From: Eledone cirrhosa
Lineage: Eukaryota
Assembly: GCA_964016885.1 (NCBI GenBank)
Contig: OZ024743.1
Span: 164,548,001 to 164,612,000 of the forward strand
Length of the DNA stretch: 64,000 nt
Reading direction: 5' to 3'
Shown here: positions 19,831-58,783 of the stretch, piece after piece
Position numbering within the stretch: the stretch's first letter is position 1
Layout of the letters: every line of letters begins with the position of its first letter
The notes under the pieces: model-generated
The model's database searches: none
The model's input: the letters and a program-made list of their open reading frames with translations, nothing else
What the model was told of the DNA's origin: nothing
Program-made: the position numbers and the translations under genes

Positions 19831-21499
19831 ATATATACATACATACATACATACACACATATACATATACACATATACATACATACATATATATACATAC
19901 ATACATACGTATATATATATACATACATACATACGTATATATATATACATACATACATACGTATATATATATACATACATACATACGTATATATATATAC
20001 ATACATACATACGTATATATATATACATACATACATACATACGTACATATATATACATACATACATACGTACATATATATACATACATACATACGTACAT
20101 ATATATACATACATACATACGTATATATATATACATACATACATACGTATATATATATACATACATACATACGTATATATATATACATACATACATACGT
20201 ATATATATATACATACATACATACGTATATATACATACATACATACATACGTATATATATATACATACATACATACATACGTATATATATACATACATAC
20301 ATACATACGTATATATATATACACACATACATACATACGTATATATATATACACACATACATACATACGTATATATATATACATACGTATATATATACAT
20401 ACATACATACGTATATATATACATACATACGTATATATATATATACATACATACGTATATATATATATACATACATACGTATATATATACATACATACAT
20501 ACGTATATATATACATACATACATACGTATATATATACATACATACGTATATATATACATACATACATATATATATATATACATACATACGTATATATAT
20601 ATATACATACATACGTATATATATATATACATACATACGTATATATATATATACATACATACGTATATATATATATACATACATACGTATATATATATAT
20701 ACATACATACGTATATATATATATATACATACATACGTATATATATATATACATACATACGTATATATATATATACATACATACGTATATATATATATAC
20801 ATACATACGTATATATATATATACATACATACGTATATATATATATACATACATACGTATATATATATATACATACATACGTATATATATATATACATAC
20901 ATACGTATATATATATATACATACATACGTATATATATATATACATACGTATATATATACATACATACGTATATATACATACATACATACGTATATATAC
21001 ATACATACGTATATATATATACATACATACGTATATATATATACATACATATATATATACATACATACGTATATATACATACATACATACATACATATAT
21101 ACATACATACATATATACATACATACATATATACATACATACATATATACATACATACATACATACATATATACATACATACATATATACATACATACAT
21201 ATATACATACATACATATATACATACATACATATATACATACATACATATATATATATACATACATATATACATACATACATATATATATATACATACAT
21301 ATATACATACATACATACATATATATACATACATATATACATACATATATACATACATACATATATATATACATACATATATATATATACATACATATAT
21401 ACATACATACATATATATATATACATACATATATACATACATACATATATACATACATACATATATATATATACATACATATATACATACATATATACA

Positions 21500-21533
<34 letters not shown>

Positions 21534-21645
21534 CATACATATATATACATACATACATATATACATACATACATACATACATACATACATACATACATAC
21601 ATACATACATACATACATACATACATACATACATACATACATACA

Positions 21646-21677
<32 letters not shown>

Positions 21678-21683
21678 CATACA

Positions 21684-21717
<34 letters not shown>

Positions 21718-22752
21718 CATACATACGTATATATATATACATACATACATATACATACATACATACATACATATACATACATACATATACATACATATAT
21801 ATACATATACATACATATATATATATATACATACATATATATATATATACATACATATATATATATATACATACATACATACATATATATATACATACAT
21901 ACATATATATATACATACATATATATATATATACATACATATATATATACATACATACATATATATATACATACATACATATATATATACATACATACAT
22001 ATATATACATATATACATATATATATACATACATACATATATATACATATATACATATATATATATACATATATATATATACATACATACATATATATAC
22101 ATACATACATATATATATATACATATATATATATACATACATATATATATATACATACATATATATATATACATACATATATATATATACATACATATAT
22201 ACATACATATATATATATACATATATATATATACATATATATATATACATATATATATATACATATATATATATACATACATATATATATATACATATAT
22301 ATATATACATACATATATATATATACATATATATATATATACATATATATATACATATATATATATACATATATATATATATACATATATATATATACAT
22401 ATATATATATACATATATATATATACACATATATATATACATATATATATATACATATATATATATATACATATATATATACATATATATATATACATAT
22501 ATATATATACATATATATATATACATATATATATATACATATATATATATATACATATATATATACATATATATATATACATATATATATATACATATAT
22601 ATATATACATATATATATATACATATATATATATACATATATATATATACATATATATATATACATACATATATATACATATATATATATACATACATAT
22701 ATATACATATATATATATACATACATATATATATATACATATATATATATAC

Positions 22753-22784
<32 letters not shown>

Positions 22785-22803
22785 ACATATATATATATAC
22801 ATA

Positions 22804-22897
<94 letters not shown>

Positions 22898-22933
22898 CAT
22901 ATATATATATATACATACATATATATACATATA

Positions 22934-22974
<41 letters not shown>

Positions 22975-23156
22975 ACATACATATATATATATACATATAT
23001 ATATATACATATACATACATATATATATATACATATATATATATACATACATATATATACATATATATACATACATATATATATATACATACATATATAT
23101 ACATATATATACATACATATATATATATATATACATACATATATATATATATATAC

Positions 23157-23190
<34 letters not shown>

Positions 23191-23538
23191 ACATACATAT
23201 ATATATATACATATATATATATACATACATATATATACATATATATACATACATATATATATATATATACATACATATATATATATATATACATACATAC
23301 TTACATATATATACATACATACATATATATATATACATACATACATACTTACATATATATACATACATACATACTTACATATATATACATACATACGTAT
23401 ATATATATACATACATACGTATATATATATACATACATACGTATATATATATACATACATACATACGTACATATATATACATACATACGTACATATATAT
23501 ACATACATACATATACATACATACATACATATATATAC

Positions 23539-23577
<39 letters not shown>

Positions 23578-23790
23578 CATATATATACATACATACATAT
23601 ACATACATACATACATACGTACATACATACATACGTATATATATATATATACAAACATACATACATACGTATATATATATACAAACATACATACATACGT
23701 ATATATATATACAAACATAGATACATATATATGTATATATGTGTGCGTGTGTACATACATACATACATACATACATACATACATACATAC
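19831..23790. repeat. 4-kb TA/TACA/TACG microsatellite
   Basis: Direct inspection. Confidence 0.98.
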
Positions 23791-26364
23791 ATGAAAATGA
23801 AGGTAATAGGAGCATAATTACAATAATAAATAACCCGAAAGCGAAATCTGTCAATATCAATACCATGAGTAATGCCGGTACCAGAAACGATATTATATAT
23901 TACATATTAAATCTTTTTTTTATGACGAAAGTCAGGCAATTTGAAAACACGAATTTGAATATAATATACATGAGCAATAACAATAAATACTTTTCGAAGA
24001 TTTAAATAAATAAAGAAAGAAATTACACATTAGCTTGCACGAAGACTGTGATATATAATAAAAAGCCAACAGGTAATGTAAGCAGAAAGTAGTTTCAAAT
24101 AAAATACTCAAGCCAGCCAAATAAACAAGTGTTAAATTCAAACTTAAAGAAAAAAAAACATTACTCACGTCTATTCTAGGCTAATTCCTCCGCAAAACAA
24201 GACAATCATTTTTATTCGTATGAAAAGAAGATTAGCCAGGAATCTGGCTGACTGCAGCGGACACCTAGCGACACGAGTCCAGTTCCTTTTTATTTAATCC
24301 TTTTGATAACGTTTCCTTCATATATTTACGAATTCCGTTAAACTATCTCAGACATGTATGATGTATTCAACAAACCTTCCATTTAAAAAAGCTCGTGGAT
24401 GATTGCACACGCCTTCCATTGTGCCTGAATATCACGCTCCCGCTTCCGAAGCTGGAAACACTCGGATACATATTTAATTTTGCGAATTGTTTCTCTCTCT
24501 TCTTAGAATAGGACCGACTGAAACTATTAGAGACAGCCAGACAGGTGGCTAGACATGCTTGCGAGCTTTGGGAAAGTAGATTGAATGAATCAATACAGAG
24601 TGACTGAAAGATATTTAAAGACTAAAACAATATTATAGTCGATACTCCAAAACAACAGACAATTAAGTGATTGACTAATAATGGATGCGTTTTTTTTCAC
24701 AAAATACGCGGAATTAGGTGATATGGAAGGGGTTAAATAGGGTTTATGATCCGGAAAAATAATATATTTAATGGTTCTTTTTTTAGCTTTTTCCCGGCTT
24801 GGGAAAAATAGTGGTTGCCAATTACCGACCACATGCATTTAGTGGCAGACACGTGCAGGCAACAACGCTACTGATAGTGCTGCTAATTTTCCAGTGATTT
24901 CCGTTTCTATCTCTCTTTCTCTTCTCGTTCCGATAAATCTTCAGCATAGAGCATCCTTTCTTCCGACCAACAATTTAGTGCTGAGGTGAATACACGTTTT
25001 CCAGATTATATTTTTTATTTTATTATATACATTGGACAAGACTGCGGAGTTATAAACATTCGTTGAAACACAAAATAAGCTACATAATAAATAAAAATGC
25101 TAATGTGAAACGAAATTTGATTAAAGTAAAATTAGTAAATAAATTACTCAATGATTGTTGCTTCATGTGTTTGATTTTATTTATAATTTTTTAATTTAAT
25201 TTTCTAAATCTCAACATTATAAATGCGTATGTTTGTACGTGGAATTTACACAAAAACAATTATGCGAGACGAAACAGCGTGTGACGGCGGGGGCGGGAAC
25301 AGCGACTGTTTCGAAACATCAAACAAGACTAACCACAAAACGATTGCTCATACGTTACTTTCTAAATCTGTCAACATATATCATCGGTATTTTTTTTTAA
25401 CAAACAGACATTCTTCGAACATTCCACAATAGCAGTTTTTTTGTTTGTTTGTTTGTTTGTTTTGTGTTTCTTTTTTTTTGTGGAGTTTTCCGGTAGAATA
25501 ATCATGAATTTATTTTTAAAAGCAGCTTCAGTGTAAGTCGTATGACAAATTAAGAACAATTTGTATTTATATACGAGTCGATTAATTTTTATACTTATCT
25601 AATATATTAATTCTATATACTTAGATTTGTACTTAAGTAATTATTTTGCTGGATTAGTTTATATTTAATGTGCAGAAATAAAATATATAGAACCATATTC
25701 ATGTTTTCTCGCGGATTTTATAACAAATGCAATGGAATTGTGTCGTAATATTTTGTCAGACTTTCTGTGTTGTTGCCGTTTACCCCGAAATCGACACTGA
25801 TTGAACGAATATAGCTTGAATGGTCAAAGCCATGCCAATCCCGATTTATTTTCATGAATAATGGGTCACAGTACTTTATCCAATGTGTCTTATTTGCTTT
25901 TTTTTAAAGCGGTGAAGAGTGTAGGGAAATTTGGTTGCTATTTCTAGCAAGTCAAGCGACTCTCGTTAGCCCGTGTTTTGTATGTTTATCATTGCAACAT
26001 TCATGGAAATCGACGATGGAAAGGCTAGTGGAACGGGGAGAAACGGTCAAGAAGTACCTTCCAATAGTTATTTCGTTTCTCCGCATATAACCAATGTTCT
26101 TGTTTGTTTCTGGAAGAAGAGAGCGGTATCCATGGCTTTGGCAGACTCCCAGAGGCCGATGAGACTAATGCCGTTCACTTTCCCACCTAAAGTGTTGCAA
26201 GTCGACGCCGGCAGACAAAAAAGAGGGAAAAAACATGAGTCGCCGAGGGTGTCAATGAAGGCCGAGGTTCTAGTGAGAAACAACTGGGCTTAGTGGTTGG
26301 TGCGAGGCTTGATAGGGGTTTCTTAGACACAACATCGGTGATAAGTAGAGAAAGTACACTTCTT

Positions 26365-34940: not shown

Positions 34941-35295
34941 CAACTGAAAGAATATATATGCCACAATGTTTGCCATATTTGTCCTTCCCACCCTTTCCTG
35001 TATGGAATGCATGGTATGTATGTATTTATGTACATACACACGTACATATATAAATACGCTATGATTATATAACTTCAAGTGAATGAAACGAGGGTGTGGG
35101 AGGATATTGGTGCAAATGGTAACAGAGTGGTCATGTCAATGTTTATCCCCTTCATCCCTTCTATGGAGCTTCTTTCTATAACCCCACCTAATAGACTAAT
35201 TTACTTAGTCAAAATGCGGTGCGAGCAATATTTAATAGCAATTTTTCAAAAATCTCCTGTTTGTGAACAAAGCCGAGCTTGGTATCTGTATTTAT

Positions 35296-35789
35296 TTATA
35301 TATATACATACAAACAAACAAACAAACAAACAAACAAACAAACAAACAAACACACACACACACACATATATATATATATGTATATATATATTTATATATA
35401 TGTATATATATATTTACATATATACATATATATAAACATATATATATACACACATATATATACATATACACATATATATACACATATATATACATATATA
35501 CATATACATACACATATATATACATATATACATATATATATACACATATATATATATATATACATATATTAATTCTGGCAATAGTACACAAATATGACCT
35601 CCCCAAGTAAACCATATAAATATACATATACATATACACACATATATATATATACATATATAAACATATACATATACATATATAAACATATACATATATA
35701 TATATATACATATATATACATATACATATACATATACATATATATACATATACATATATATATACATATATACATATACATATATACAT

Positions 35790-35834
<45 letters not shown>

Positions 35835-36005
35835 CATATACATATATACAATATATATATATACATATATATATATACATATACTATATACATATACACA
35901 TATACATATACACATATACATATATACATATACATATATACATATACATATACACATATATATATATACATATATATATATACATATATATACATATACA
36001 TATAT

Positions 36006-36076
<71 letters not shown>

Positions 36077-36147
36077 CATATATATATACATATACATATA
36101 TATACATATACATATATATACATATATATATATATACATATATATAC

Positions 36148-36178
<31 letters not shown>

Positions 36179-36220
36179 CATATATACATATACATATATA
36201 CATATACATATATACATATA

Positions 36221-36253
<33 letters not shown>

Positions 36254-36301
36254 ATATACATATATACATATACATATATATATACATACATATATATATA
36301 C

Positions 36302-36334
<33 letters not shown>

Positions 36335-36345
36335 CATATATATAC

Positions 36346-36376
<31 letters not shown>

Positions 36377-36391
36377 CATATATATATTTTC

Positions 36392-36470
<79 letters not shown>

Positions 36471-36528
36471 CATATAGTATATATATACATATATATATAC
36501 ATATATATATATATACATATATATATAC

Positions 36529-36559
<31 letters not shown>

Positions 36560-36596
36560 CATATATATATACATATACATATATATATACATATAC

Positions 36597-36675
<79 letters not shown>

Positions 36676-36792
36676 CATATATATATACATATATATATAT
36701 ATACATATATATATACATATATATATATACACATATATATATATACACACATATATATATACATATATATATATACACATATATATATACAC

Positions 36793-36823
<31 letters not shown>

Positions 36824-36891
36824 CATATATAATATATATACATATATACATATATATATATACATATATATATATACATATATATATACAC

Positions 36892-36938
<47 letters not shown>

Positions 36939-36968
36939 CATATATATATACACATATATATATTATAC

Positions 36969-37001
<33 letters not shown>

Positions 37002-37097
37002 CATATATATATATACATATATATATATATACAATATATATATATATACATATACATATATATACATATACATATATATACATATACATATATATAC

Positions 37098-37128
<31 letters not shown>

Positions 37129-37321
37129 CATATACATATATATACATATACATATATATACATATATATATATATACATATATATATACATATACATATA
37201 TATACATATACATATATAATACATATATATATATATACATAATATATATATATACATATACATATATATACATATACATATATATACATATATATATACA
37301 TATATATATATACATATATAC

Positions 37322-37352
<31 letters not shown>

Positions 37353-37367
37353 CATATATATATATAC

Positions 37368-37398
<31 letters not shown>

Positions 37399-37445
37399 CA
37401 TATATATATATACACATATATATATATACATATATATATACATAC

Positions 37446-37492
<47 letters not shown>

Positions 37493-37536
37493 CATATATA
37501 TACATATACATATATATACATATATATAATATATAC

Positions 37537-37567
<31 letters not shown>

Positions 37568-37581
37568 CATATTATATATAC

Positions 37582-37628
<47 letters not shown>

Positions 37629-38324
37629 CATACATATATATATATACATATATATATATACATATATATATACATATATATATACATATATATATACATA
37701 TATATATACATATATATATATACATATATATATATACATATATACATATATACATATACTATAATATATACATATATATATATATACATATATATACATA
37801 TATATATACATACATATATATATATATATACATATATATATACATACATATATATATATATATACATATAATATATACATATATATATATACATATATAT
37901 ATATACATACACATATATACATACATATATACATACATATACATATATATATATAACATACACATATATACATACATATATACATATACATATATATACA
38001 TATATATATACATATATATATACATATATATATACATATATATATACATATATATATACATATATATATACATATATATATACCATATATATATACATAT
38101 ATATATACATATATATATACATATATATATACATATATATATACATATATATATACATATATATATACATATACATACATATATACATACATATATACAT
38201 ATATATATACATATATATATACATACATATATACATACATATATACATATATATATACATATATATATACATATATATATACATATATATATACATACAT
38301 ATATATATACATATATATATATAC

Positions 38325-38355
<31 letters not shown>

Positions 38356-38372
38356 CATATATATATATGTAC

Positions 38373-38405
<33 letters not shown>

Positions 38406-38713
38406 CATATATATAATACATATATACATATATACATATATACATATATATATATACATATATATATATACATATATACAATATATACATATATACATAT
38501 ATATATATACATACATATATATACATATATATATATACAATATATATATACATACATATATATAACATATATATATATACATATATATATATACATACAT
38601 ATATATACATATATATATATACATATATATATATACATACATATATATACATATATATATATACATATATATATATACATACATATATATACATATACAT
38701 AACTTATATATAC

Positions 38714-38760
<47 letters not shown>

Positions 38761-39102
38761 CATATATATATACATATATATATATACATATATATATACA
38801 TATATATATACATATATATATACATATATATATACATATATATATACATATATATATACATATATATATACATATATATATACATATATATATACATATA
38901 TATATACATATATATATACATATATATATACATATATATATACATATATATATACATATATATATACATATATATATACATATATATATACATATATATA
39001 TACATATATATATACATATATATATACATATATATATACATATATATATACATATATACATATATACATATATATATATAAATACATATACATATATAAT
39101 AC

Positions 39103-39180
<78 letters not shown>
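35296..39180. repeat. 3.9-kb degenerate TA/TACA microsatellite (short unique island ~35568-35615)
   Basis: Direct inspection. Confidence 0.97.
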
Positions 39181-39350
39181 CCCGGATGAGCCCACAGCAA
39201 GACACGAGGGAAACCTAAGGGCAGCAGCAACAAACTCCCTCCTACACCAGTGGCCAACCTATGCAGGCTGGAAGATAAAAAATGTGTAGCAACGGTGCCC
39301 CAGCATGGCCTCAGCCGGATGGCTGAAACAGGTAAAAGAGTAAAAGAGTA
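39181..39350 (+). mobile_element. SINE/LINE 3' end with (GTAAAAGA)n tail
   Basis: Terminal hairpin TCAGCC-ggat-GGCTGA then GTAAAAGAGTAAAAGAGTA; inverted copy at 39836-40031. Confidence 0.65.
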
Positions 39351-39448
39351 TGTATATATATATATGTATATGTATATGTATATGTATGTATATGTATATG
39401 TATATATATATGTATATATATATGTATATATATATGTATATATATATG

Positions 39449-39488
<40 letters not shown>

Positions 39489-39694
39489 TATATATATGTA
39501 TATATATGTATGTATATATATATATATGTATATATATGTATGTATATATACATATATATATATATACATATATACATATATATATATACATATATACATA
39601 TATATATATACATACATATATATACATATATATATATATACATACATATATATACATATATATATATATACATACATATATATACATATATATA

Positions 39695-39730
<36 letters not shown>

Positions 39731-39835
39731 CATACATATATACATATATATATACATATATATATACATATATATATACATATATATATACATATACATA
39801 TACATACATATACATATACATATATATATATATAC

Positions 39836-40031
39836 ATACTCTTTTACTCTTTTACCTGTTTCAGCCATCCGGCTGAGGCCATGCTGGGGCACCGCCCTTG
39901 TTGCTACACATTTTATCTCCAGCCTGCATAGGTTGGCCACTGGTGTAGGAGGGAGTTTGTTGCTGCTGCCCTTAGGTTTCCCTCGTGTCTTGCTGTGGGC
40001 TCATCCGGGATCCTGGATAACAAGGTGTCGA
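39836..40031 (-). mobile_element. Second copy of the (GTAAAAGA)-tailed element, running into the gap
   Basis: Reverse complement of 39181-39350 with small indels. Confidence 0.65.
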
Positions 40032-48153: not shown

Positions 48154-48484
48154 ATCATCATCATCATCATTTTACGTCCGCTTTTCCCTGCTTGCAAGGG
48201 TGGGACGGGAACTGATTCTGGCTTGATTTCTACAGCTGGATGCCCTTCCTAACACCAACCTCATTTACAGTGAGTGCTGGGTGCTTTTTTGCCGTGGCAC
48301 CTACACGACCACTTTGCAGTGGAATGATAGGGACCCCAGTCCCTATCATCTCATTTCTACAGCTGAGTAAACTGGAGCAATGTGAAATAAAGTGTCTTGC
48401 TCAAGGAAACAACACATCACCCGGTCTGAGAATTGACCTCACAACCTTTCGATTGCAAGGCCAATGCTCTAACCACTAAGCCAT
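48154..48484 (-). mobile_element. tRNA/CORE-like SINE with RTE-A-derived 3' tail
   Basis: TGGCTTAGTGG A box, GGTCAATTC B-box-like, TTGAGCAAGACACTTTATTTCAC core; 3' ~160 bp match the RTE-A 3'UTR and (GAT)n tail. Confidence 0.85.
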
Positions 48485-48925
48485 GTATATATATATATAT
48501 ATGTATGTATGTATATATATATTGTATGTATGTATATATATATATATGTATATATATATGTATATATATATGTATATATATATATGTATATATATATATG
48601 TATATATATATATGTATATATATGTATATATATATATATGTATGTATATATATATATATGTATATATATATATGTATATATATGTATATATATATGTATG
48701 TATATATATGTATATATATATGTATGTATATATATATGTATGTATATATATATATGTATGTATATATATATATATGTATGTATATATATATATGTATGTA
48801 TATATATATATGTATGTATATATATATATATGTATATATATATATGTATGTATGTATATATATATATATGTATGTATATATATATATGTATGTATATATA
48901 TATATGTATGTATATATATATATGT

Positions 48926-48966
<41 letters not shown>

Positions 48967-48969
48967 TGT

Positions 48970-49024
<55 letters not shown>

Positions 49025-49045
49025 TATATATATGTATGTATATAT

Positions 49046-49085
<40 letters not shown>

Positions 49086-49097
49086 GTATGTGTATAT

Positions 49098-49152
<55 letters not shown>

Positions 49153-49177
49153 TATATGTATATATATGTATGTATAT

Positions 49178-49266
<89 letters not shown>

Positions 49267-49275
49267 TGTATGTAT

Positions 49276-49350
<75 letters not shown>

Positions 49351-49354
49351 TATG

Positions 49355-49386
<32 letters not shown>

Positions 49387-49390
49387 TATG

Positions 49391-49422
<32 letters not shown>

Positions 49423-49484
49423 TATGTATGTATGTATATATACGTATGTATATATATATACGTATGTATATATATATACGTATG

Positions 49485-49529
<45 letters not shown>

Positions 49530-49554
49530 ATATATATGTATGTATATATATATG

Positions 49555-49606
<52 letters not shown>

Positions 49607-49608
49607 TG

Positions 49609-49639
<31 letters not shown>

Positions 49640-49664
49640 GTATATATGTATATATATATATGTA
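48485..49664. repeat. TA/TATG microsatellite
   Basis: Direct inspection. Confidence 0.97.
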
Positions 49665-50277
49665 TGTCAGGTCACCAGTTGGTGCTACTGGTAACATGTA
49701 TCCCAGTACAACCTGTCTCATGGTCGGGTCGTTGGCGACTAAGCTGGCAACCCCACCAAGGTTTCTTGGTGAGGAAGGTGACTTTGAACATCCTGCAGGA
49801 CTAAAAACAAAACCAGTCAAAGGGCAAAGGAGCTCTTAAGAGTCAATGGCCATCCAAAATCACTGGGAGAGATGACCCCTTAGCCTTTGACAAGGCAGAA
49901 TTCTAGGAGAAGGAAAACTCTGATATAACACCTGCAACTCGGATGGTATCCAATGATATTGACTTGTTCTTCTTTTTGGTAAATATCATCTTGGTTAAGA
50001 GAGTGGGACTGGCTTTGTGCAGTGCCTTTGCTCACTATAAAAGCTTCACGGCACACGCATTGCTTTATATCTGGAGATCTTTCTGCACTTGTCGTCACAT
50101 GGTGCCATGGGCCCAGCACTATGTGTCAATAATTGTCACAGGTGTAGTGTTTGTACCAGAATTTTCAAGTCGCTGGCTGGACCAAAAAGTCACACTTGTT
50201 TAGCGCATCGGTAGGGGTTCTCCTACATGGATATAAAGTAGTGGCCGTACTCGAAAACAAGTTGTCTGGCAACCACC
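49665..50277 (+). mobile_element. ~610-bp non-coding element, full copy
   Basis: Same ends as 10631-11239; microsatellite on both sides. Confidence 0.8.
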
Positions 50278-52703: not shown

Positions 52704-52814
52704 ATATATATATATATATGTATGTATATATATATATGTATGTATATATATATATATATATGTATGTATATATGTATGTATATATATATATGTATGTATG
52801 TATATATATGTATG

Positions 52815-52848
<34 letters not shown>

Positions 52849-53260
52849 TATATGTATGTATATATATATATATGTATGTATGTATATATATATATATGTA
52901 TATATATATTTATATATATGTATGTATGTATATATATATATATATGTAGGAGGTGAGTTTTATTGTAGTACAATAAAGCAATGCAGATATCGGATAAGAA
53001 GCACTCTACAGTTTGTAGGACTGGAGTATACATAATATATAAGATCAATAAAATACATGGAACTCCTTTAACCATCTTTTGATCTTATATATTATGTATA
53101 CTCCAGTCCTACAAACTGTAGAGTGCTTCTTATCCGATATCTGCATTGCTTTATTGTACTACAATAAAACTCACCTCCTACATTAACTTGCTCTTAACGG
53201 TTGAGCGCTTACTCTCATATTGGATACCTTCTGATGGTCTTTTACCTCTTCTTCTACAAC

Positions 53261-55654
53261 ATGGATTATTACAACATAACCAATTCAACTAAAGACATTC
53301 CTATACCTGGTAAATCTGAATTCACCAAACTTCTAATTGAAAAAACTGACTCCTTCGTAAGAAGACTTAGATGGATAGCCTATTTCTATGACCAGCGCCT
53401 AAAAGGGAACTTCTATACCAAAGAACATAACTTCCTCGATCATCTATTTAATTCTAGAAGAAATCCTCCTTCCAACAAAAATCTAGTGCAATTCGAGGAA
53501 GAGTTAACTAAAATAATAAAAAATCTTAAATTCAAGAGATACCCTTACAAAGGACAAGAGCACCTTGTAAATCTCAAGAACACAATTTCTAACCTAAATT
53601 CCTCAAAAAATGTTTTAGTCCACTCTGACAAAACCAATAACTTATATGGTATTTCCAAGGATAATTATAACAACCTTATCCTAAAGGAACTTAGGAAAAA
53701 GTATCGTAAAACCAACCATGAAAATTTAGAATACATAAACCTTGAAGCCTCTGAGATTATGTCAAAACTTGGCATTGAAAAAAAGACCGAACCATTCCTC
53801 CCAAGAACTCCGAGGATAAATCTCAAGGATCACAAAAACAATTTTCGCACTGAACTACCTGTTAGATTAATCGCCCCCTCTAAATCTGATCTGGGGGTTG
53901 TTAGTAAAGCCATCTTGGATAGAATTATCCCACAGGTTAGTTCTAATTGCTCTTCTTTGAACCTAAATTTATGGTTTGGTACTTCTGAAGTGATTGGCTG
54001 GTTCAACAAATTGGATAATAAAAACAAACTAAAATTTATTCAATTTGATATTGCCAGCTACTATTCCTCCATTTCGCCTTCACTTCTCAATAATGCTCTA
54101 TCTTTCGCACTTAAATATTCTGACATCACCACAGATGAACTTCACATCATCCTCACCGCACGTAAAACCATCCTAGAGTTCAACAACGAATATTGGACCA
54201 GAGCCGATACCTCTAACAACTTCGACATCACAATGGGAGCATCCGATTCATCCCAATTGACTGATTTAATTGGTATCTTTATTTTGAACTCTTTGAGTCG
54301 GAAAATTCCTCAACTTCGCGGTGGAATTTATCGTGACGATGGACTCTTTACTATCTTAAATTGCAATATAGTTAACCTTAATATTATTAAGAACAATATA
54401 CGTAATCTCTTTAACCAACATAACCTAAAAATTGAATTTGATAACAGTATCAAACTAGCTAATTTCTTGGATGTATCTCTTAATCTTGACACTGGCCTAT
54501 ATTACCCTTACCATAAAAACAATGAGAACCTAAATTATGTTAACTTTAAATCTAACCATCCTACCAATATCAAGAATGCTATAGTTAGTAATATTGGAAA
54601 AAGAATATCTAACATATCTTCTAATAAAAACATCTTTGATGCTAACGCCAATTACTATAATAACGCACTTTCTAAAGCCGGCTATCCTGATAAAATCAAA
54701 TATAGTAAAGAAACAAATTCTAGAAAAACTTACAGTAGAATAATTAATCATGATCATTCCAATAACTTTAATAAAAGATCTAGATACAAAAACATAATCT
54801 GGTATAATGCTCCTTTCTCCATCTCTATTAATAACAATATTCCTAAATTATTCTTTAGTGCCTTAAATAAATGCTTCCCTCCCTCACATATCTATAGTAA
54901 AATATTTAACAAACACACCATCAAATTTTCTTATTCTACATCCTCCAATATTTCCAACATTATCTCTAAACACAACAATAAAATACTAAATACTAAATCT
55001 CTTCCTTCCAACACTGAATTTCATAATAACAGTAATAGTACTCCCGACGTCATTGTAAACCCTAGGCTAATTTCTGTAAACCCAAATACAACGTCAAACA
55101 CAACTTCGCTAAATGTTCATAATCCAACTCTAAATCAAGAAACTATTATTCCTATCGCAAACAACTTCTCCAATCCAATTCCTTCTATAGATAACACTAG
55201 GTCACTCATTAATAATCTCTCTAATTGCAACTGCCGCATTAAAAATAAATGTCCTCTCAACAACCATTGTCTTGATAAAAACTTAATTTATGAATGTAAA
55301 GTTATAACTAGCACCAATTCCTTCACCTATTTTGGCTCCACTTCCACCTCTTTTAAAGCTCGTCTCTATAATCATCATTCATCTTTTAAATACAAACTTA
55401 AAAGAACCAACACGGCTCTCTCAGAACTCATATGGTCCTTGAAAGACAAAAACATTAAATATACCATCTTTTGGAAGAAGGTTTCTTCTGCGTCTCCATA
55501 CTTGAACAGCTCTCTATCTAAAATCTGTAATCTCTGCCTAAATGAAAAATTTACCATTATCTCTAATCTAGATTCTATAATAAATAGACGTACAGATTTG
55601 TTTTCTATCTGCTTGCATAAATTCCATAAGACTTTTCACAAAGTATACAGCTAA
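53261..55654 (+). CDS. Penelope-type reverse transcriptase with C-terminal GIY-YIG endonuclease
   Basis: STKDIPIP, SDKT, LKDHK, VRLI, QFDIASYYSSI, MGASDS, YRDD, FLDV, SNHP; CNC..CPL..CL..LIY..YFGST..FKARLYNH..CNLCLNEK; no stops. Start at ATG 53261 is inferred (frame open from 53201). Confidence 0.9.
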   Translation: MDYYNITNSTKDIPIPGKSEFTKLLIEKTDSFVRRLRWIAYFYDQRLKGNFYTKEHNFLDHLFNSRRNPPSNKNLVQFEEELTKIIKNLKFKRYPYKGQEHLVNLKNTISNLNSSKNVLVHSDKTNNLYGISKDNYNNLILKELRKKYRKTNHENLEYINLEASEIMSKLGIEKKTEPFLPRTPRINLKDHKNNFRTELPVRLIAPSKSDLGVVSKAILDRIIPQVSSNCSSLNLNLWFGTSEVIGWFNKLDNKNKLKFIQFDIASYYSSISPSLLNNALSFALKYSDITTDELHIILTARKTILEFNNEYWTRADTSNNFDITMGASDSSQLTDLIGIFILNSLSRKIPQLRGGIYRDDGLFTILNCNIVNLNIIKNNIRNLFNQHNLKIEFDNSIKLANFLDVSLNLDTGLYYPYHKNNENLNYVNFKSNHPTNIKNAIVSNIGKRISNISSNKNIFDANANYYNNALSKAGYPDKIKYSKETNSRKTYSRIINHDHSNNFNKRSRYKNIIWYNAPFSISINNNIPKLFFSALNKCFPPSHIYSKIFNKHTIKFSYSTSSNISNIISKHNNKILNTKSLPSNTEFHNNSNSTPDVIVNPRLISVNPNTTSNTTSLNVHNPTLNQETIIPIANNFSNPIPSIDNTRSLINNLSNCNCRIKNKCPLNNHCLDKNLIYECKVITSTNSFTYFGSTSTSFKARLYNHHSSFKYKLKRTNTALSELIWSLKDKNIKYTIFWKKVSSASPYLNSSLSKICNLCLNEKFTIISNLDSIINRRTDLFSICLHKFHKTFHKVYS

Positions 55655-55898
55655 TATTCAATTCTTTATCAATTTAGAATCTTTTCTCAAAGGCACATAT
55701 ACATACACCTCTTTTAAAATATACCCATCTTCCTACCTTACTTCAAAGGGTATTATACTCTCTATAATACTTGTTTACTCATTACCCTCACTCTATCTTC
55801 ACCTTGTAAAATCATTCGTAACATATATATTTGTTTTTTGACGCTAGATTATTCATCCTTAATTTATTATTTTTTTCTCCCCATCATCTAACTCATTC

Positions 55899-56122
55899 TT
55901 AATACATATTAACTCTTTCTTCGCACATATTATCAATTCCTTCAATATACAAACCTTAACTTCACATTATTTTTCTCAAATCCTTCAATACACAAACCTT
56001 AATAATTTTTTAATACATATTAACTCTTTCTTCGCACATATTATCAATTCCTTCAATATACAAACCTTAACTTCACATTATTTTTCTCAAATCCTTCAAT
56101 ACACAAACCTTAATAATTTTTT
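55899..56122. repeat. ~112-bp perfect tandem duplication in PLE 3'UTR
   Basis: TTAATACATATTAACTCTTTC...CCTTAATAATTTTT twice. Confidence 0.85.
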
Positions 56123-56580
56123 CTCTTCGTTAATTTTCAAATTTCCATAATACTTGTAAACATACACACAATTTTTTTGACGTTAGAATATTCATCCGCA
56201 ATTATTATTTTTTTCTCTCTATCATCAAACTTTTAAATCTCAATACATATTAACTCCCTCTCCTTCTTCGTACATATTTTTCCCTTCGTTAATTTTCAAA
56301 TTCTTTTAATTTATACATTATCTTCCAACAGTTTTCAACCTCTCTATGTAAAACAATATATCTTTTCTCAGTTATAAAAACTATCTATTTCTCTCTATCA
56401 CCCATCTCTCCCTCTCCACCTTCACTCTCATCTCCTCCCCTTTTTTCATCCTTTCCACCCACCCCCTCTCTAAATAAAATATTTTTTCCCAATATCACAC
56501 ATCAATCTAAAATTACTTTTCATATGTTGATTTAAAACTGCACTATCCACAAGTGTTTTTTAGCCTTCATATCATGTCCT

Positions 56581-56656
56581 CCTGTTTTATCTGATGAAAA
56601 CACATATTATTGCATGATGATGTTTGTTTTTGAAATGCGCATAATAAAATACATGG
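56581..56656 (+). ncRNA. Type I hammerhead ribozyme of the Penelope element
   Basis: TTTTAT-CTGATGA(56591-97)-long stem II-GAAA(56632-35)-TGCGCA-T-A-ATAAAA; palindromic stem III ATGCGCAT; predicted cut after 56643. Confidence 0.8.
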
Positions 56657-56881
56657 AACTCCTTTAACCATCTTTTGATCTTATATATTATATATATATG
56701 TATATATATATTTATATATATGTATGTATATATATATATAGGTATGTATATATATATATATGTATGTATATATATTTATGTATGTATATATATATATATA
56801 TATATTTATGTATGTATATATATATATTTATATATATATATATATATACATGTATGTATTATATATGTATATGTATGTATG

Positions 56882-56913
<32 letters not shown>

Positions 56914-56941
56914 CATATATGTGTATATATATATATGTATG

Positions 56942-58783
56942 TAAGGTGGAAGAGTCTATTAAGGCCAAAAAGCAGGCTTGGAAAGTATGGCGGGGTGGGG
57001 GAAGTAGAGAAGACTATCAAGTGGCCAGGAGGGAAGCTTGGAGACAAGTGTACTTCGCAAGAAGGGAAGCAGAGGAAAGAAAGTTCAAGCATGTTCTACA
57101 ACACGAGGACCAAAAACATCAGGTGTTCAGGATTGCTAGGCAAAATGTCAAGGAAAACCGTGATATTATTGGGGAGAAGTGTGTCCTAAATGATGATGGT
57201 GTACTTGCCATCATTGATGCTGATAAGAAGGTGGCTTGGAAGAGTCACTACGAAAGGCTACTAAATCAGGAGAATAAATGGGAGAAAGACAGTCTCCCCC
57301 ACATCCATCCAATCGAGTGACCAGCAGTGTTAGTTGAAGGTAGTATAATAAGTAAGGCAATCAAAGATATGAAGACGGGTAAGGCAGCTGGGCCTTTGGA
57401 AATAGTTGCTGAAATGCTGAAAGCATCTGGAACGGTGGGACACACTATGGTCACCCGGATAGTAAACCAAGTTATACAGAATGGGGCCATTCTGAAGGAC
57501 TGGTGTAGCAGCATCATCATTAACTGCTACAAGGGTAAAGGAGATGCCCTCGATAGGGGTAACTATAGAGGCATTAAATTAATCGACCAGGTCATGAAGG
57601 TCACATAATAAGTAAGAGCGCAACTAATCAAAGAACAAATTGATCTAGATGAAATGCCGTTCGGGTTTGTGTCAGGTAAAAGTACCACAGACGCTCTTTT
57701 CATTGTACAACTACAGGAGAAGTACCTAGCTAAAAGTAAACCCCTATACTTAGCTTTTGTTGACTTGTGGCCGGTGCTCTGGTGTAATAAGTAGCAGCAA
57801 GTGCCCACAGAATACTAGCTCATTCCATTGCACAGATGGTTCTATAGAAATAGTGGACACCTTCCGTTACCTGGGTGACAAAATCAGCAGTGGCGGAGGG
57901 TGCTCTGAAAGTACAGTAGCTAGAGTCAGAATGGGATGGAAAAAGTTTAGAGAACTTATACCACTATTAGCCGCTAAAGGGTTCTCTCTAAAAATGAAAG
58001 GCAGGCTGTATGATGCCTGCATACGAACAGCAATGTTACATGGTAGTGAGACCTGGGCATTGTGTGCAGAGGATATATGCAGACTGGAGAGGAATGAAGC
58101 TTGCATGCTTCGCTGGATGTGTAATAGTAATATACGTGAACAGCAAAGCATAAACGAACTAAGGGAGAAATTAGGAATAAGAGGGATCAGATGTTGTTTA
58201 CTCGAGAGAAGACTACGTTGATATGGTCACGTGATGCGCATGAAAGACGACAGCTGTATAAAAAAGTTCAGGGTGATAAAAATAGATGGTAGCCACGGAG
58301 TAGGCAGACCCAGAAAAACCTGGGACGACTTGATAAATTCCGACCTCACACACTTACACCTCTCCATGACAATGTCACTGGACCGAGATCTTTGGCTCTA
58401 CAGAAGAAACGCCTTGCCTAAGTACAAAGCGAAACCTACATTCAGTAGGCACCTCTAACAAAAATACACCCCTGTCCCACTACCCCACCCCATCCACACC
58501 ACCCCCTTCAATGTGAAGTTATGTTGGTACCACAACATCCAGTCCGAAACAAATGAGGTCGTGTAGGTGTCACGACAAAAAAACACACCGTCCACGCTGT
58601 AATGTAGCCGTGTAGGTAACACAGTAAAAACCTCTCAGTCCACACTGTAAACGTGGTTGGTGTTAGGAACGGCATCCAGCCGTAGAAAACCCGAGCAGGA
58701 CAACCAATCTTGCCTCAAGTGGGATAACTCCCGTCCAAACCCATGCAAGCGTGGAAGATTGATGTTAAACGATGATGATGATG
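56942..58783 (+). mobile_element. RTE subfamily B copy with stops and ~550-bp internal deletion
   Basis: Homologous to 18201-19830 and to RTE-A; jumps from AFVD to CGRC at ~57766; (GAT)4 tail. Confidence 0.9.

What the first reader, a model, noticed from the sequence alone, without database searches (positions are those of the whole stretch)
52944..56691. Intact Penelope (Naiad-type) element whose 5' end equals its hammerhead cleavage site, capped by a 105-bp fold-back
Seen: the hammerhead at 56581-56656 predicts a cut after 56643, releasing ATAAAATACATGGAACTCC... The same string starts the sense element at 53048 (within 1 nt of ambiguity) and the match stops there. Immediately upstream, 52944-53048 is an apparently perfect inverted copy of 53079-53183 (30-nt spacer). 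Established: PLEs carry hammerheads in pLTRs and often inverted partial pLTRs. Inference: this insertion records reverse transcription to the end of a self-cleaved RNA followed by an inverted second priming event, giving nucleotide-level support for ribozyme processing in vivo.
Basis: partly seen in the sequence, partly recalled or inferred. Interest (0 to 1): 0.75.

Follow-up and report, generated by a model that had tools for sequence, protein, structure and literature searches.

The report
Two-armed Hydra-type Penelope element copy
This is a young, coding-intact copy of a Hydra-type (not Naiad-type) Penelope-like jumping gene whose start coincides with the predicted cut site of its own hammerhead RNA, but most other copies in the genome read straight through that site, so the coincidence is only weak evidence that the ribozyme likely cuts in living cells.

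Summary
The sequence features are all there: a perfect 105/105-nt inverted repeat (52944-53048 vs 53079-53183, 30-nt spacer), a 797-codon open frame, a type-I hammerhead motif at 56581-56656, and a sense copy that begins where that motif would cut (after 56643).

- **Clade:** the element belongs to the Hydra clade of Penelope-like elements (C-terminal GIY-YIG, DKT, CxCX5C, (TA)n target), not Naiad.
- **The "fold-back cap":** this is the usual inverted partial copy of these elements. Its outer end (53183) is a recurrent alternative 3' terminus of the family, lying 88 nt beyond the main one. It is therefore likely a second, opposite-strand cDNA and not a snap-back.
- **5' ends:** they are scattered. 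Of 30 copies carrying the 5' UTR, 19 read through the cut site, 10 stop short of it, and only the window copy ends on it.
- **Junction census:** in 254 head-to-head junctions, positions mostly follow short homologies and palindromes.
- **Residual signal:** 10 separate mini-insertions have both arms ending exactly at the cut with only a 2-nt overlap. Arm ends at +1/+2 are about 3.5-fold above their neighbours.

So some templates probably ended at the cut, but uncleaved RNA dominates. No RNA data were available. Earlier notes of this scan describe other hammerhead-bearing Penelope-type repeats elsewhere in this genome.

The parts
52704..52943 (.). Left flank: (TA)n/(TATG)n microsatellite, the insertion target
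   Evidence: Tandem Repeats Finder rows 52704-52948; sequence
52944..53048 (-). Inverted arm: a 105-nt partial copy in opposite orientation (reverse complement of 53079-53183). Its outer end at 52944 corresponds to the family's alternative 3' terminus T2.
   Evidence: 105/105 match. Of the 30 copies, 18 have an inverted arm: its outer end equals T2 (ref 53182-53185) in 12 of them, window included, equals T1 in 3, and is unresolved in 3.
53048..53095 (+). 5' copy of the terminal redundancy (+1 to +48 after the predicted cut), the start of the sense element
   Evidence: Direct repeat D5 with 56643-56696
53183..53183 (+). T2: position of the alternative 3' terminus (+136) within the sense copy's 5' UTR (...CTCACCTCCTACAT)
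   Evidence: 29 copies with an intact hammerhead upstream end here next to (AT)n, against 83 that end at T1
53261..55654 (+). Single open reading frame, 797 codons from the ATG plus stop
   Evidence: Full-length alignment to 11 homologues. Keeps all 29 invariant residues of a 39-sequence alignment. AlphaFold2 model has mean pLDDT 85.1.
54047..54340 (+). Reverse transcriptase palm: motif A Asp263 (54047-54049) to motif C Asp359-Asp360 in YRDD (54335-54340)
   Evidence: Invariant in A2. Foldseek best matches are telomerase TERT chains, E 1.7e-7 to 4.7e-7.
55001..55219 (+). N/S/T-rich insert of about 70 residues between RT and endonuclease, absent from homologues and predicted disordered
   Evidence: Gap in all 11 homologues at alignment columns 601-680. 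pLDDT below 50 for residues 581-653.
55226..55270 (+). CxCX5C(X5C) zinc-finger-like linker: C656, C658, C664, C670
   Evidence: Invariant cysteines. Named as a Hydra-clade feature in PMC8557442.
55289..55651 (+). C-terminal GIY-YIG-type endonuclease (Y677, Y690-x-G692, R701, H705; CxxC..E and CxH further on)
   Evidence: Invariant residues. Weak Pfam GIY-YIG hits in 4 of 39 relatives at the same place, none in the window protein itself.
55899..56122 (+). Two tandem copies of a 111-bp unit in the 3' UTR
   Evidence: (D4)
56581..56656 (+). Type-I hammerhead motif with 1-bp helix III and palindromic loop. Predicted cut after 56643.
   Evidence: Core and helices read. The MFE fold recovers helices I and II. 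96.5% of cells pair across 22 variant copies, against 40-61% when slid. No Rfam match. Cleavage untested.
56644..56691 (+). 3' copy of the terminal redundancy, ending at T1, the main 3' terminus, which merges into (TA)n
56692..56940 (.). Right flank: (TA)n microsatellite

Best explanation
A young Hydra-clade Penelope-like retrotransposon copy sits in a (TA)n microsatellite, and its two arms were likely made by two opposed target-primed cDNAs. One cDNA would have started at the family's main start site T1 (56691) and run one full unit plus 48 nt, to 53048. The other would have started on the opposite DNA strand at the alternative start site T2 (equivalent to 53183) and run 105 nt. The two would then have been joined across 1-2 nt of shared sequence.

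That the long cDNA ends at the predicted hammerhead cut site may reflect run-off on a ribozyme-cleaved RNA, at about even odds for this copy. The family as a whole mostly copies RNA that is not cut there.

Shown directly: the anatomy, the clade motifs, the recurrent T1/T2 termini, and the distribution of junctions. Inferred: two primings, joining by short homology, and any RNA cleavage.
For: Anatomy.

Clade and protein:
- Motifs DKT, CxCX5C, CxxC..E and CxH, a C-terminal GIY-YIG and a (TA)n target match the description of the Hydra clade (PMC8557442, section read).
- The predicted fold is closest to telomerase RT.

Family and termini:
- The family is young and abundant: 40 scored copies are 98-100% identical out of 610 candidates.
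- There are two alternative 3' termini. In 129 instances with an intact hammerhead upstream, 83 end at T1, 29 at T2, 7 read through T1 without an exact T2 motif and 10 continue past T2 into the 5' UTR.
- Of the 30 copies, 18 have an inverted arm. Its outer end is T2 in 12 (window included), T1 in 3 and unresolved in 3.

Published mechanism: a purified Penelope-like protein from Anolis cleaves and extends both DNA strands and starts reverse transcription at two internal RNA sites that match the genomic 'tail'. Hammerhead mutants did not change insertion in that system (PMC11167929, main text read).

Junction positions follow short homologies and palindromes:
- ATGCGCAT: 12
- CATG: 10
- ATGG overlap: about 20
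- TAAA overlap: 16

Read-through of the cut:
- 19 of the 20 full-length-type copies that reach it
- 108 of 154 sense arms
- 39 of 75 inverted arms

Against: - No RNA or biochemical data exist for this species, so two primings are inferred from DNA alone.
- The arms are 100% identical, which a snap-back would also give.
- T1 and T2 both border TA-rich sequence. They could be preferred joining sites to the (TA)n target and not true initiation sites.
- The 88-nt T1-T2 distance is longer than the 30-40-bp tail described for other clades (PMC8557442).
- The excess of arm ends at +1/+2 and the ten cut-site palindromes show that the cut site is not a neutral position. 'Chance' is therefore not the whole story.
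Confidence: 0.7

Rival explanations
1. One reading: the template RNA had been cut by an upstream hammerhead. Reverse transcription ran off its 5' end at 53048, and a second, inverted priming event then capped it. The junction is therefore a DNA record of ribozyme cleavage in vivo.
For: - The sense copy starts within 1 nt of the predicted scissile bond.
- Ten separate loci with different flanks, carrying three sub-variants, are mini-insertions whose two arms both end at +1 with only a 2-nt AT overlap. Four more are within 1-2 nt.
- Other symmetric junctions with so little homology occur 1-2 times each.
- Sense-arm ends number 29 at +1/+2, against 17 over +3..+6 and about 4 per nt over -1..-13.
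- Another locus (C20:17001924, L071) has nearly the same junction as the window.
Against: - Of 30 copies with the 5' UTR, only the window copy ends at the cut, and 19 read through it.
- Exact-core double-mismatch searches give 11 real junctions at the cut, against about 7, 9, 5, 6, 3, 6 and 15 at positions -8, -4, +2, +3, +5, +9 and +14.
- For asymmetric junctions like the window's, the count at +1 is 5 of 185, against roughly 2.5-3 per neighbouring position.
- Substitutions at the cut are not elevated, so there is no sign of imprecise template jumps there.
- In the only biochemical study, cleavage was dispensable and no RNA-seq reads began or ended at the cut (PMC11167929).
- This copy has no upstream hammerhead of its own, so the claim concerns its unknown source copy.
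Confidence: 0.4
2. Pure coincidence: the long cDNA stopped or was joined at 53048 on an uncleaved template, like the many junctions at neighbouring bases. The AA shared by the two arms guided the joint.
For: Junctions occur at every tested position around the cut and are dominated by short homologies. The window junction has 1-2 nt of overlap. The first-stage reader could have noticed a coincidence with any landmark.
Against: The cut site is the second most frequent palindrome axis despite only 2 nt of self-complementarity: 8 perfect plus 2 mutated, against 12 for the 8-nt ATGCGCAT and 4 perfect for CATG. That argues for some real end at +1.
Confidence: 0.4
3. The RNA is not cut. Either the reverse transcriptase tends to stall and switch at the base of the folded hammerhead core (or its helix-III dimer), or transcription of source copies starts at this base. 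Either would give a discrete end at +1 without ribozyme catalysis.
For: The same DNA footprints as for cleavage. +1 lies right at the three-way junction, after helix I has been unwound. An AT-rich stretch lies about 36-45 nt upstream.
Against: Most arms pass the site. A structural stall would be expected at the foot of helix I (about +13) as much as at +1. No promoter evidence was obtained.
Confidence: 0.15
4. The inverted arm is a true snap-back: the finished cDNA folded on itself at the AA/TT overlap and copied itself for 105 nt.
For: The arms are 105/105 identical with a 30-nt loop. Zero-loop hairpins occur elsewhere in the family (L034, L044, L059). In L250 both arms share a rare change.
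Against: Self-copying has no reason to stop at 53183, yet of the 18 inverted arms in the random sample 12 end at T2, 3 at T1 and 3 are unresolved. T2 is also a plain 3' terminus of 29 sense copies. In L225 the two arms differ at a sub-variant site, which points to two templates.
Confidence: 0.15

Closest known systems
Hydra clade of Penelope-like elements (Craig et al. 2021, PMC8557442; Hydra section and passages read)
   Same: - Single ORF with a C-terminal GIY-YIG
- DKT in place of DKG
- CxCX5C linker
- CxxC and CxH motifs near the conserved E/N
- Hammerhead in the terminal repeat
- Insertion into (TA)n
- Inverted 5'-truncated partial copies and a 'tail'
- Reported from molluscs among other aquatic invertebrates
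   Different: - The unit is 3.6 kb, whereas the clade is described as generally under 3 kb.
- There is a roughly 70-residue low-complexity insert between RT and EN.
- The window copy reads RWI where relatives read RWK.
- The tail is 88 nt, not 30-40 bp.
- No phylogeny was built here.
Poseidon element PAc of Anolis carolinensis, studied in vitro (Frangieh et al. 2024, PMC11167929; main text read)
   Same: - Both DNA strands are used as primers.
- There are two internal start sites on the RNA that explain the genomic tail.
- The target is AT-rich.
- A hammerhead is present but most templates are uncleaved.
   Different: - It belongs to a different clade (Penelope/Poseidon).
- Its start sites lie inside the ORF; here they lie 48 and 136 nt after the predicted cut, in the 5' UTR.
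- The present evidence is genomic only.
- A minor excess of ends at the cut is seen here. The Anolis RNA-seq showed none.
HDV-like ribozyme of R2 retrotransposons (Eickbush et al. 2013, PMC3774820; search listing and start of abstract only)
   Same: A self-cleaving ribozyme in the element's RNA whose cut coincides with the element's 5' junction in DNA.
   Different: In R2 the ribozyme sits at the 5' end and cleavage at the junction is the rule. Here the hammerhead lies in a terminal repeat and most copies read through the cut.
Twin priming and 5' inversions of human L1 (recalled from Ostertag and Kazazian 2001; not looked up here)
   Same: The second DNA strand of the target primes a second cDNA, giving an inverted 5' segment joined by microhomology.
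   Different: In L1 the inverted part is a different stretch of the same RNA. Here the inverted arm duplicates sequence also present in the sense arm and starts at a fixed internal site.
Metazoan non-LTR retrozymes (Cervera and de la Pena 2020, known here only from reference lists; Li et al. 2026 preprint, abstract and passages read)
   Same: Hammerhead-bearing repeats related to Penelope-like terminal repeats. Cleaved unit RNAs are proposed as templates.
   Different: Retrozymes are non-coding tandem units thought to pass through circular RNA. This is an autonomous element, and nothing here shows a circle.

Membership tests
Penelope-like elements (EN+) | Reverse transcriptase of the telomerase-like kind | tested here: met
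   Invariant D263 and D359-D360. AlphaFold2 model pLDDT 85.1. The five best Foldseek matches are TERT chains (E 1.7e-7 to 4.7e-7; TM 0.28-0.40), followed by other RTs. Pfam RVT_1 appears only below threshold, in 4 of 39 relatives, and not in the window protein.
Penelope-like elements (EN+) | GIY-YIG endonuclease in the same ORF | tested here: met
   Invariant Y677, Y690, G692, R701 and H705 at the C-terminus. Pfam GIY-YIG hits 4 of 39 relatives, one of them at the curated cut-off. No hit for the window protein itself. The fold of this domain was not searched separately.
Penelope-like elements (EN+) | Partial tandem copies (pseudo-LTRs), inverted 5'-truncated copies, optional tail | tested here: met
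   19 of 30 copies continue into an upstream partial copy, and 18 of 30 have an inverted arm. Two alternative 3' termini lie 88 nt apart.
Hydra clade | C-terminal EN; DKT; CxCX5C linker; CxxC and CxH near E/N | tested here: met
   Window protein: SDKTNN, CNCRIKNKC, CNLCLNE, CLH. Cysteines 656, 658, 664 and 670 are invariant. The feature list comes from PMC8557442.
Hydra clade | RWK motif near the N-terminus | tested here: inconclusive
   RWK is present in 7 of the 10 homologues that cover the region. The window copy reads RWI.
Hydra clade | CCHH motif of other PLE endonucleases absent | not tested
   No reference alignment of other clades was at hand to place the motif.
Hydra clade | Insertion into (TA)n | tested here: met
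   Both flanks of the window copy are (TA)n, as are nearly all family termini seen.
Hydra clade | Placement within the clade by phylogeny | not tested
   No named reference sequences were available and no tree was built.
Naiad clade | N-terminal GIY-YIG followed by CxC domain and RT (permuted order) | tested here: not met
   The GIY-YIG residues lie at 677-705 of 797, after the RT.
Naiad clade | No canonical hammerhead | tested here: not met
   A standard-order type-I motif is present at 56581-56656.
Type-I hammerhead of Penelope-like elements | Core CUGANGA ... GAAA ... UH, in type-I order | tested here: met
   56591-56597, 56632-56635 and 56642-56643. The core is kept in the commonest copy sequence (52 of 119 instances identical) and in the sub-variants.
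Type-I hammerhead of Penelope-like elements | Helices I and II; very short helix III with a palindromic loop (dimer-type) | tested here: met
   The MFE fold gives helices I and II (z-score -0.69, not significant). 96.5% of cells pair in 22 variants, against 40-61% when slid. There are no two-sided compensatory changes, and shuffles do equally well. Helix III is 1 bp plus UGCGCA. This architecture is described in PMC4209133.
Type-I hammerhead of Penelope-like elements | Match to a curated covariance model | tested here: not met
   No Rfam hammerhead match at gathering score or at E<=10 over 4.1 kb.
Type-I hammerhead of Penelope-like elements | Self-cleavage | not testable with these tools
   No RNA run is on record. 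Laid contigs cannot show RNA ends.

The most novel reading that the evidence does not exclude
The ten cut-site palindromes and the excess of arm ends at +1/+2 are DNA fossils of hammerhead cleavage in vivo. In this cephalopod-type genome a Penelope-like hammerhead cuts its RNA. The reverse transcriptase, bound at start sites 48 and 136 nt downstream of the cut, then copies the short 3' fragment to its new 5' end, producing dead-end mini-insertions and an occasional full-length copy such as the one in this window. That would be the first genomic evidence that these ribozymes act in cells, and it would suggest that cleavage competes with full-length retrotransposition instead of serving it.
Probability: 0.4. 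Interest if true: 0.65.

Novelty: new member of a known kind. Interest (0 to 1): 0.4.

Why it matters
What the hammerheads of Penelope-like elements do has been open since 2014. They have been proposed to process tandem transcripts (PMC4209133), yet the one biochemical study found them dispensable and saw no cleaved ends in RNA-seq (PMC11167929).

This family offers thousands of young copies with base-exact junctions, so the question can be put to DNA. The answer here is sobering for the single copy: its architecture is ordinary, and most copies ignore the cut site. There is nonetheless a measurable minority signal at the cut that could be tested directly with end-specific RNA sequencing.

The census also shows, from genomic data alone, two features that match the in vitro findings for another clade:
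- two fixed start sites;
- use of both target strands.

Tried and rejected
- **Rfam:** no family reached gathering score on the whole window. At E<=10 over 52800-56900 there were 29 matches and none was a hammerhead. The best are plant and animal microRNA models far below their gathering scores, and they simply see the long hairpin and the (TA)n.
- **Pfam and PDB on the ORF:** Pfam on the window ORF found nothing. PDB sequence searches with the protein and with a profile also found nothing.
- **RNA evidence:** no RNA holder is listed. Three runs kept as contigs were laid and cannot show RNA ends.
- **Covariation:** the structure is compatible with the variants, but there are no two-sided changes and shuffles do equally well.
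- **Control pattern at -20:** it gave 454 hits that are sub-family variants, so it was useless as a junction control.
- **Single-mismatch searches:** these mix junctions with point variants and had to be sorted by upstream identity.
- **Imprecise template jumps at the cut:** substitutions at -1 (11 of 30 fetched hits, out of 38 hits in all) are rarer than at +13 (24 of 30 fetched hits, out of 91). This gives no support.
- **Earlier notes of this scan:** nothing near the window or by sequence.
- **Literature:** a search for 'Penelope-like' + 'hammerhead' + 'template switching' found 3 papers, none on this question. I found no paper tabulating insertion junctions against the hammerhead cut. This rests only.
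- **Not done:** a separate fold search for the endonuclease domain, any phylogeny, and the complex-prediction tool.


Full report
**What is in the window.** The sequence shows an insertion of about 3.75 kb between two (TA)n/(TATG)n tracts.
- 52944-53048 is the exact reverse complement of 53079-53183, 105 of 105 bases. The match breaks at once on both sides and leaves a 30-nt spacer.
- 53047-53100 recurs at 56643-56696, 53 of 54 bases.
- One frame is open from 53201, with an ATG at 53261, to the stop at 55654. That is 797 codons.
- At 56581-56656 the bases of a type-I hammerhead stand in the standard order:
  - helix I 5' strand CCTGTTTTAT;
  - CTGATGA (56591-56597);
  - a long AU-rich helix II;
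  - GAAA (56632-56635);
  - a 1-bp helix III closed by the palindromic loop TGCGCA;
  - T16.1 and A17 (56642-56643);
  - helix I 3' strand ATAAAATACATGG.
- The predicted cut is after 56643. The sense copy begins at the equivalent base, 53048, give or take one base that also fits the inverted arm.

**How good is the hammerhead call.**
- Rfam gives no hammerhead match at gathering score, nor at E<=10 over 4.1 kb.
- The minimum-energy fold of 56578-56660 does recover helices I and II. Its energy is no better than that of shuffled sequence (z = -0.69).
- I aligned 22 variant copies from the genome (A3). On these, 96.5% of cells pair in the proposed structure, against 40-61% when the partners are slid.
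- Nine pairs vary on one side only (G-U to A-U or G-C). No pair changes on both sides, and shuffles do equally well.
- The architecture (long helix II, minimal helix III with a palindromic loop, thought to act as a dimer) is the one described for hammerheads of Penelope-like elements (PMC4209133, passages read).

I take the motif as real. Catalysis is untested. The window copy lacks two bases of helix II relative to the commonest copy sequence.

**What the protein is.**
- Pfam finds nothing in the window protein.
- A word-based search found 16 homologues, with E from 3.8e-130 to 3.6e-58 and 31-38% identity. Twelve of them carry a precomputed PF26215 tag.
- A profile search found 39,402 cluster representatives at E<=0.001 and 4,582 at E<=1e-30.
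- In a 39-sequence alignment the window protein keeps all 29 invariant residues. These include:
  - D263 and D359-D360 (YRDD);
  - four cysteines, C656, C658, C664 and C670;
  - Y677, Y690, G692, R701 and H705.
- Scanned singly, only RVT_1 and GIY-YIG hit more than one of the 39 members. Each hits 4, all weakly, in the middle and at the C-terminus respectively.
- An AlphaFold2 model (pLDDT 85.1, pTM 0.83) finds telomerase TERT chains as its five best Foldseek matches. Other reverse transcriptases follow.
- The language-model atlas points to clusters tagged HTH_animal, GIY-YIG and RVT_1 from cnidarians, molluscs and arthropods. That is a lead only.

**Which clade.** Craig et al. 2021 (PMC8557442; abstract, passages and Hydra section read) define the two clades as follows.
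- Naiads have an N-terminal endonuclease and lack a canonical hammerhead.
- The Hydra clade has:
  - a C-terminal endonuclease;
  - an RWK motif;
  - DKT in place of DKG;
  - a CxCX5C linker;
  - CxxC and CxH motifs near the conserved E and N;
  - canonical hammerheads;
  - insertion into (TA)n.

[quoted passage not shown] It reads RWI where 7 of the 10 homologues covering the region read RWK. The element is thus Hydra-type, not Naiad-type. No tree was built. Earlier notes of this scan call the genome cephalopod or octopus-type, which fits the reported host range.

**The family in its genome.**
- The window lies in a 3.0-Gb assembly.
- The last 221 nt of the element find 40 scored copies at 98-100% identity among 610 candidates.
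- The 5' UTR finds 40 scored copies among 470 candidates.
- In 182 instances of the terminal region in loci L001-L166, the family shows two alternative 3' termini:
  - T1 lies about 48 nt after the cut. It is used by 83 instances with an intact hammerhead upstream.
  - T2 lies 136 nt after the cut, at ...CTCACCTCCTACAT next to (AT)n. It is used by 29 such instances.
  - A few T1 calls are misassigned read-throughs with point changes.
- This 88-nt 'tail' matches in kind the optional tail of Penelope-like elements (PMC8557442).
- It also matches the two internal start sites found in vitro for an Anolis element, whose protein cleaves and extends both DNA strands (PMC11167929).

**What the inverted arm is.** Eighteen of the 30 copies that carry the 5' UTR (window included) have an inverted arm. 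Its outer end falls at T2 in 12 (window included), at T1 in 3, and is unresolved in 3. A snap-back that copies its own cDNA has no reason to stop at one fixed base, whereas a start site does. I therefore read the 105-nt arm as a second cDNA primed at T2 on the opposite strand and joined to the long cDNA across 1-2 shared bases. This is inference from DNA. The perfect identity of the arms would also fit a snap-back.

In the same 30 copies:
- 19 sense strands run through the cut site into an upstream partial copy truncated at scattered points (from -13 to beyond -630);
- 10 are truncated at +40 to +136;
- only the window copy ends at the cut.

I then searched the genome for an exact 24-nt sense core starting at position k, preceded by two bases that both differ from the expected ones. 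Numbering takes +1 as the first base after the cut. Judgements of 'real' were made by eye from 9 printed upstream bases.

| k | hits | about real | note |
|---|---|---|---|
| -8 | 15 | 7 | |
| -4 | 11 | 9 | |
| -2 | 11 | not estimated | 4 are near-cut palindromes |
| -1 | 8 | 6 | all compatible with a start at +1 |
| +1 | 13 | 11 | the cut site |
| +2 | 5 | not estimated | |
| +3 | 12 | 6 | |
| +5 | 3 | not estimated | |
| +9 | 6 | not estimated | |
| +14 | 18 | 15 | |

These searches see only unmutated copies of one sub-variant and give lower bounds. On this measure the cut site does not stand out.

**A wider census of head-to-head junctions.** A two-anchor pattern was used: an inverted-arm anchor at +49..+64 and a sense anchor at +25..+37.
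- Gaps of 40-70 nt gave 104 hits. The 100 listed were fetched and parsed.
- Gaps of 71-100 nt gave 85 hits, all fetched and parsed.
- Gaps of 10-39 nt gave 69 hits, read from the printed strings.

The commonest joints sit on short homologies or palindromes:
- an ATGG overlap: about 20;
- the 8-nt palindrome ATGCGCAT of the helix-III loop: 12, where both arms have read through the cut;
- CATG: 10;
- TAAA overlaps: 9 + 7;
- T-run/A-run overlaps: about 20.

A further recurrent axis lies on CATATG at 56522. Of arms that reach +6 or beyond, 108 of 154 sense arms and 39 of 75 inverted arms pass the cut. These are lower bounds because of the gap limit. Uncleaved RNA is therefore the main template, as in the Anolis study.

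**The residual signal at the cut.**
- Ten loci carry GTATTTTATAAAATAC. Here both arms reach +1 and overlap by only the two bases AT. Eight of the ten are perfect palindromes with arms of at least 12 nt, which makes this the second most frequent axis after ATGCGCAT.
- Four more loci are off by one or two bases.
- The ten lie at different places with different unique flanks and carry three sub-variants. All have the same form: (TA)n, a T2-primed 136-nt inverted arm, a T1-ended 46-48-nt sense arm, (TA)n.
- Other symmetric joints with as little homology occur once or twice.
- Sense-arm ends number 29 at +1/+2. That compares with 17 over +3..+6 and about 4 per base over -1..-13.
- Asymmetric joints like the window's number 5 of 185 at +1, against roughly 2.5-3 per neighbouring base.
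- One other locus (C20:17001924) has nearly the window's joint.

I conclude that a discrete template end at +1 probably exists in a minority of events. Hammerhead cleavage is the simplest cause. A stall of the enzyme at the folded core, or a transcription start at that base, would leave the same DNA. For the window copy itself the odds of cleavage against chance are about even.

**What could not be done.**
- No RNA run is on record for this sequence.
- The three runs laid are contigs and say nothing about RNA ends.
- Cleavage, start sites and two-strand priming are untested at the bench.
- Supplementary files of the papers were not opened. Supplementary file S2 of PMC8557442, which lists the Hydra hammerheads, could bear on how typical this motif is.

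**Verdict.**
- The finding is a correctly observed, ordinary insertion of a known kind of element in a known architecture, filed under the wrong clade.
- Its headline inference is not borne out as a rule of the family.
- It does survive as a modest, testable minority signal.

Noticed in passing
window 53183 and 53095/56691; loci L001-L166: The family has two fixed alternative 3' termini 88 nt apart, both next to (TA)n. In the sample with an intact hammerhead upstream they are used about 3:1 (83 against 29). The 'tail' is longer than the 30-40 bp described for other clades.
   Followed up: yes
G000 loci L167-L349; window equivalents 56636-56641, 53056-53059, 56523-56528: Head-to-head joints of two arms cluster on self-complementary words: ATGCGCAT (the helix-III loop), CATG and CATATG. 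This looks as if two cDNA 3' ends anneal to each other. The dimer-forming loop of the ribozyme doubles as a DNA-level joining site.
   Followed up: partly
window 55001-55219: A stretch of about 70 residues rich in N, S and T lies between RT and endonuclease. It is absent from all 11 aligned homologues and predicted disordered (pLDDT below 50).
   Followed up: no
window 55899-56122: An exact tandem duplication of a 111-bp unit in the 3' UTR. Some other copies (e.g. L032) appear to carry one unit only.
   Followed up: no
window 56598-56631: The window copy's own hammerhead lacks two bases (AA) of helix II compared with the commonest copy sequence.
   Followed up: partly
G000, six loci listed (e.g. 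C4:199826115, C10:13373099): A sub-variant replaces the three bases spanning the cut (A|AT) by TTC, giving GCGCATTTCAAAATAC. At least six copies therefore differ exactly at the scissile position.
   Followed up: no
window 56530-56690 against 56150-56530, runs X1 and X4: Summed word depth of public contigs is tens to hundreds of times higher over the hammerhead and terminal redundancy than over the rest of the 3' UTR. This suggests that many short or non-autonomous relatives share this end.
   Followed up: no
window 53001-53125: Rfam microRNA precursor models (MIR169_8, MIR7994 and others) score 45-59 bits here, far below their gathering scores of 100-107. They are seeing the long perfect hairpin.
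   Followed up: no
window 56944-57320: Just beyond the right (TA)n an open frame reads ...[26 protein letters not shown]..., which looks like a fragment of another retroelement. Not analysed.
   Followed up: no
window 6798-10753, 19477-23817, 35292-39876, 48417-49839: These stretches have frames of 400 to 1,400 codons open in three to five reading frames on both strands at once. That is unusual and probably stop-poor repetitive sequence.
   Followed up: no
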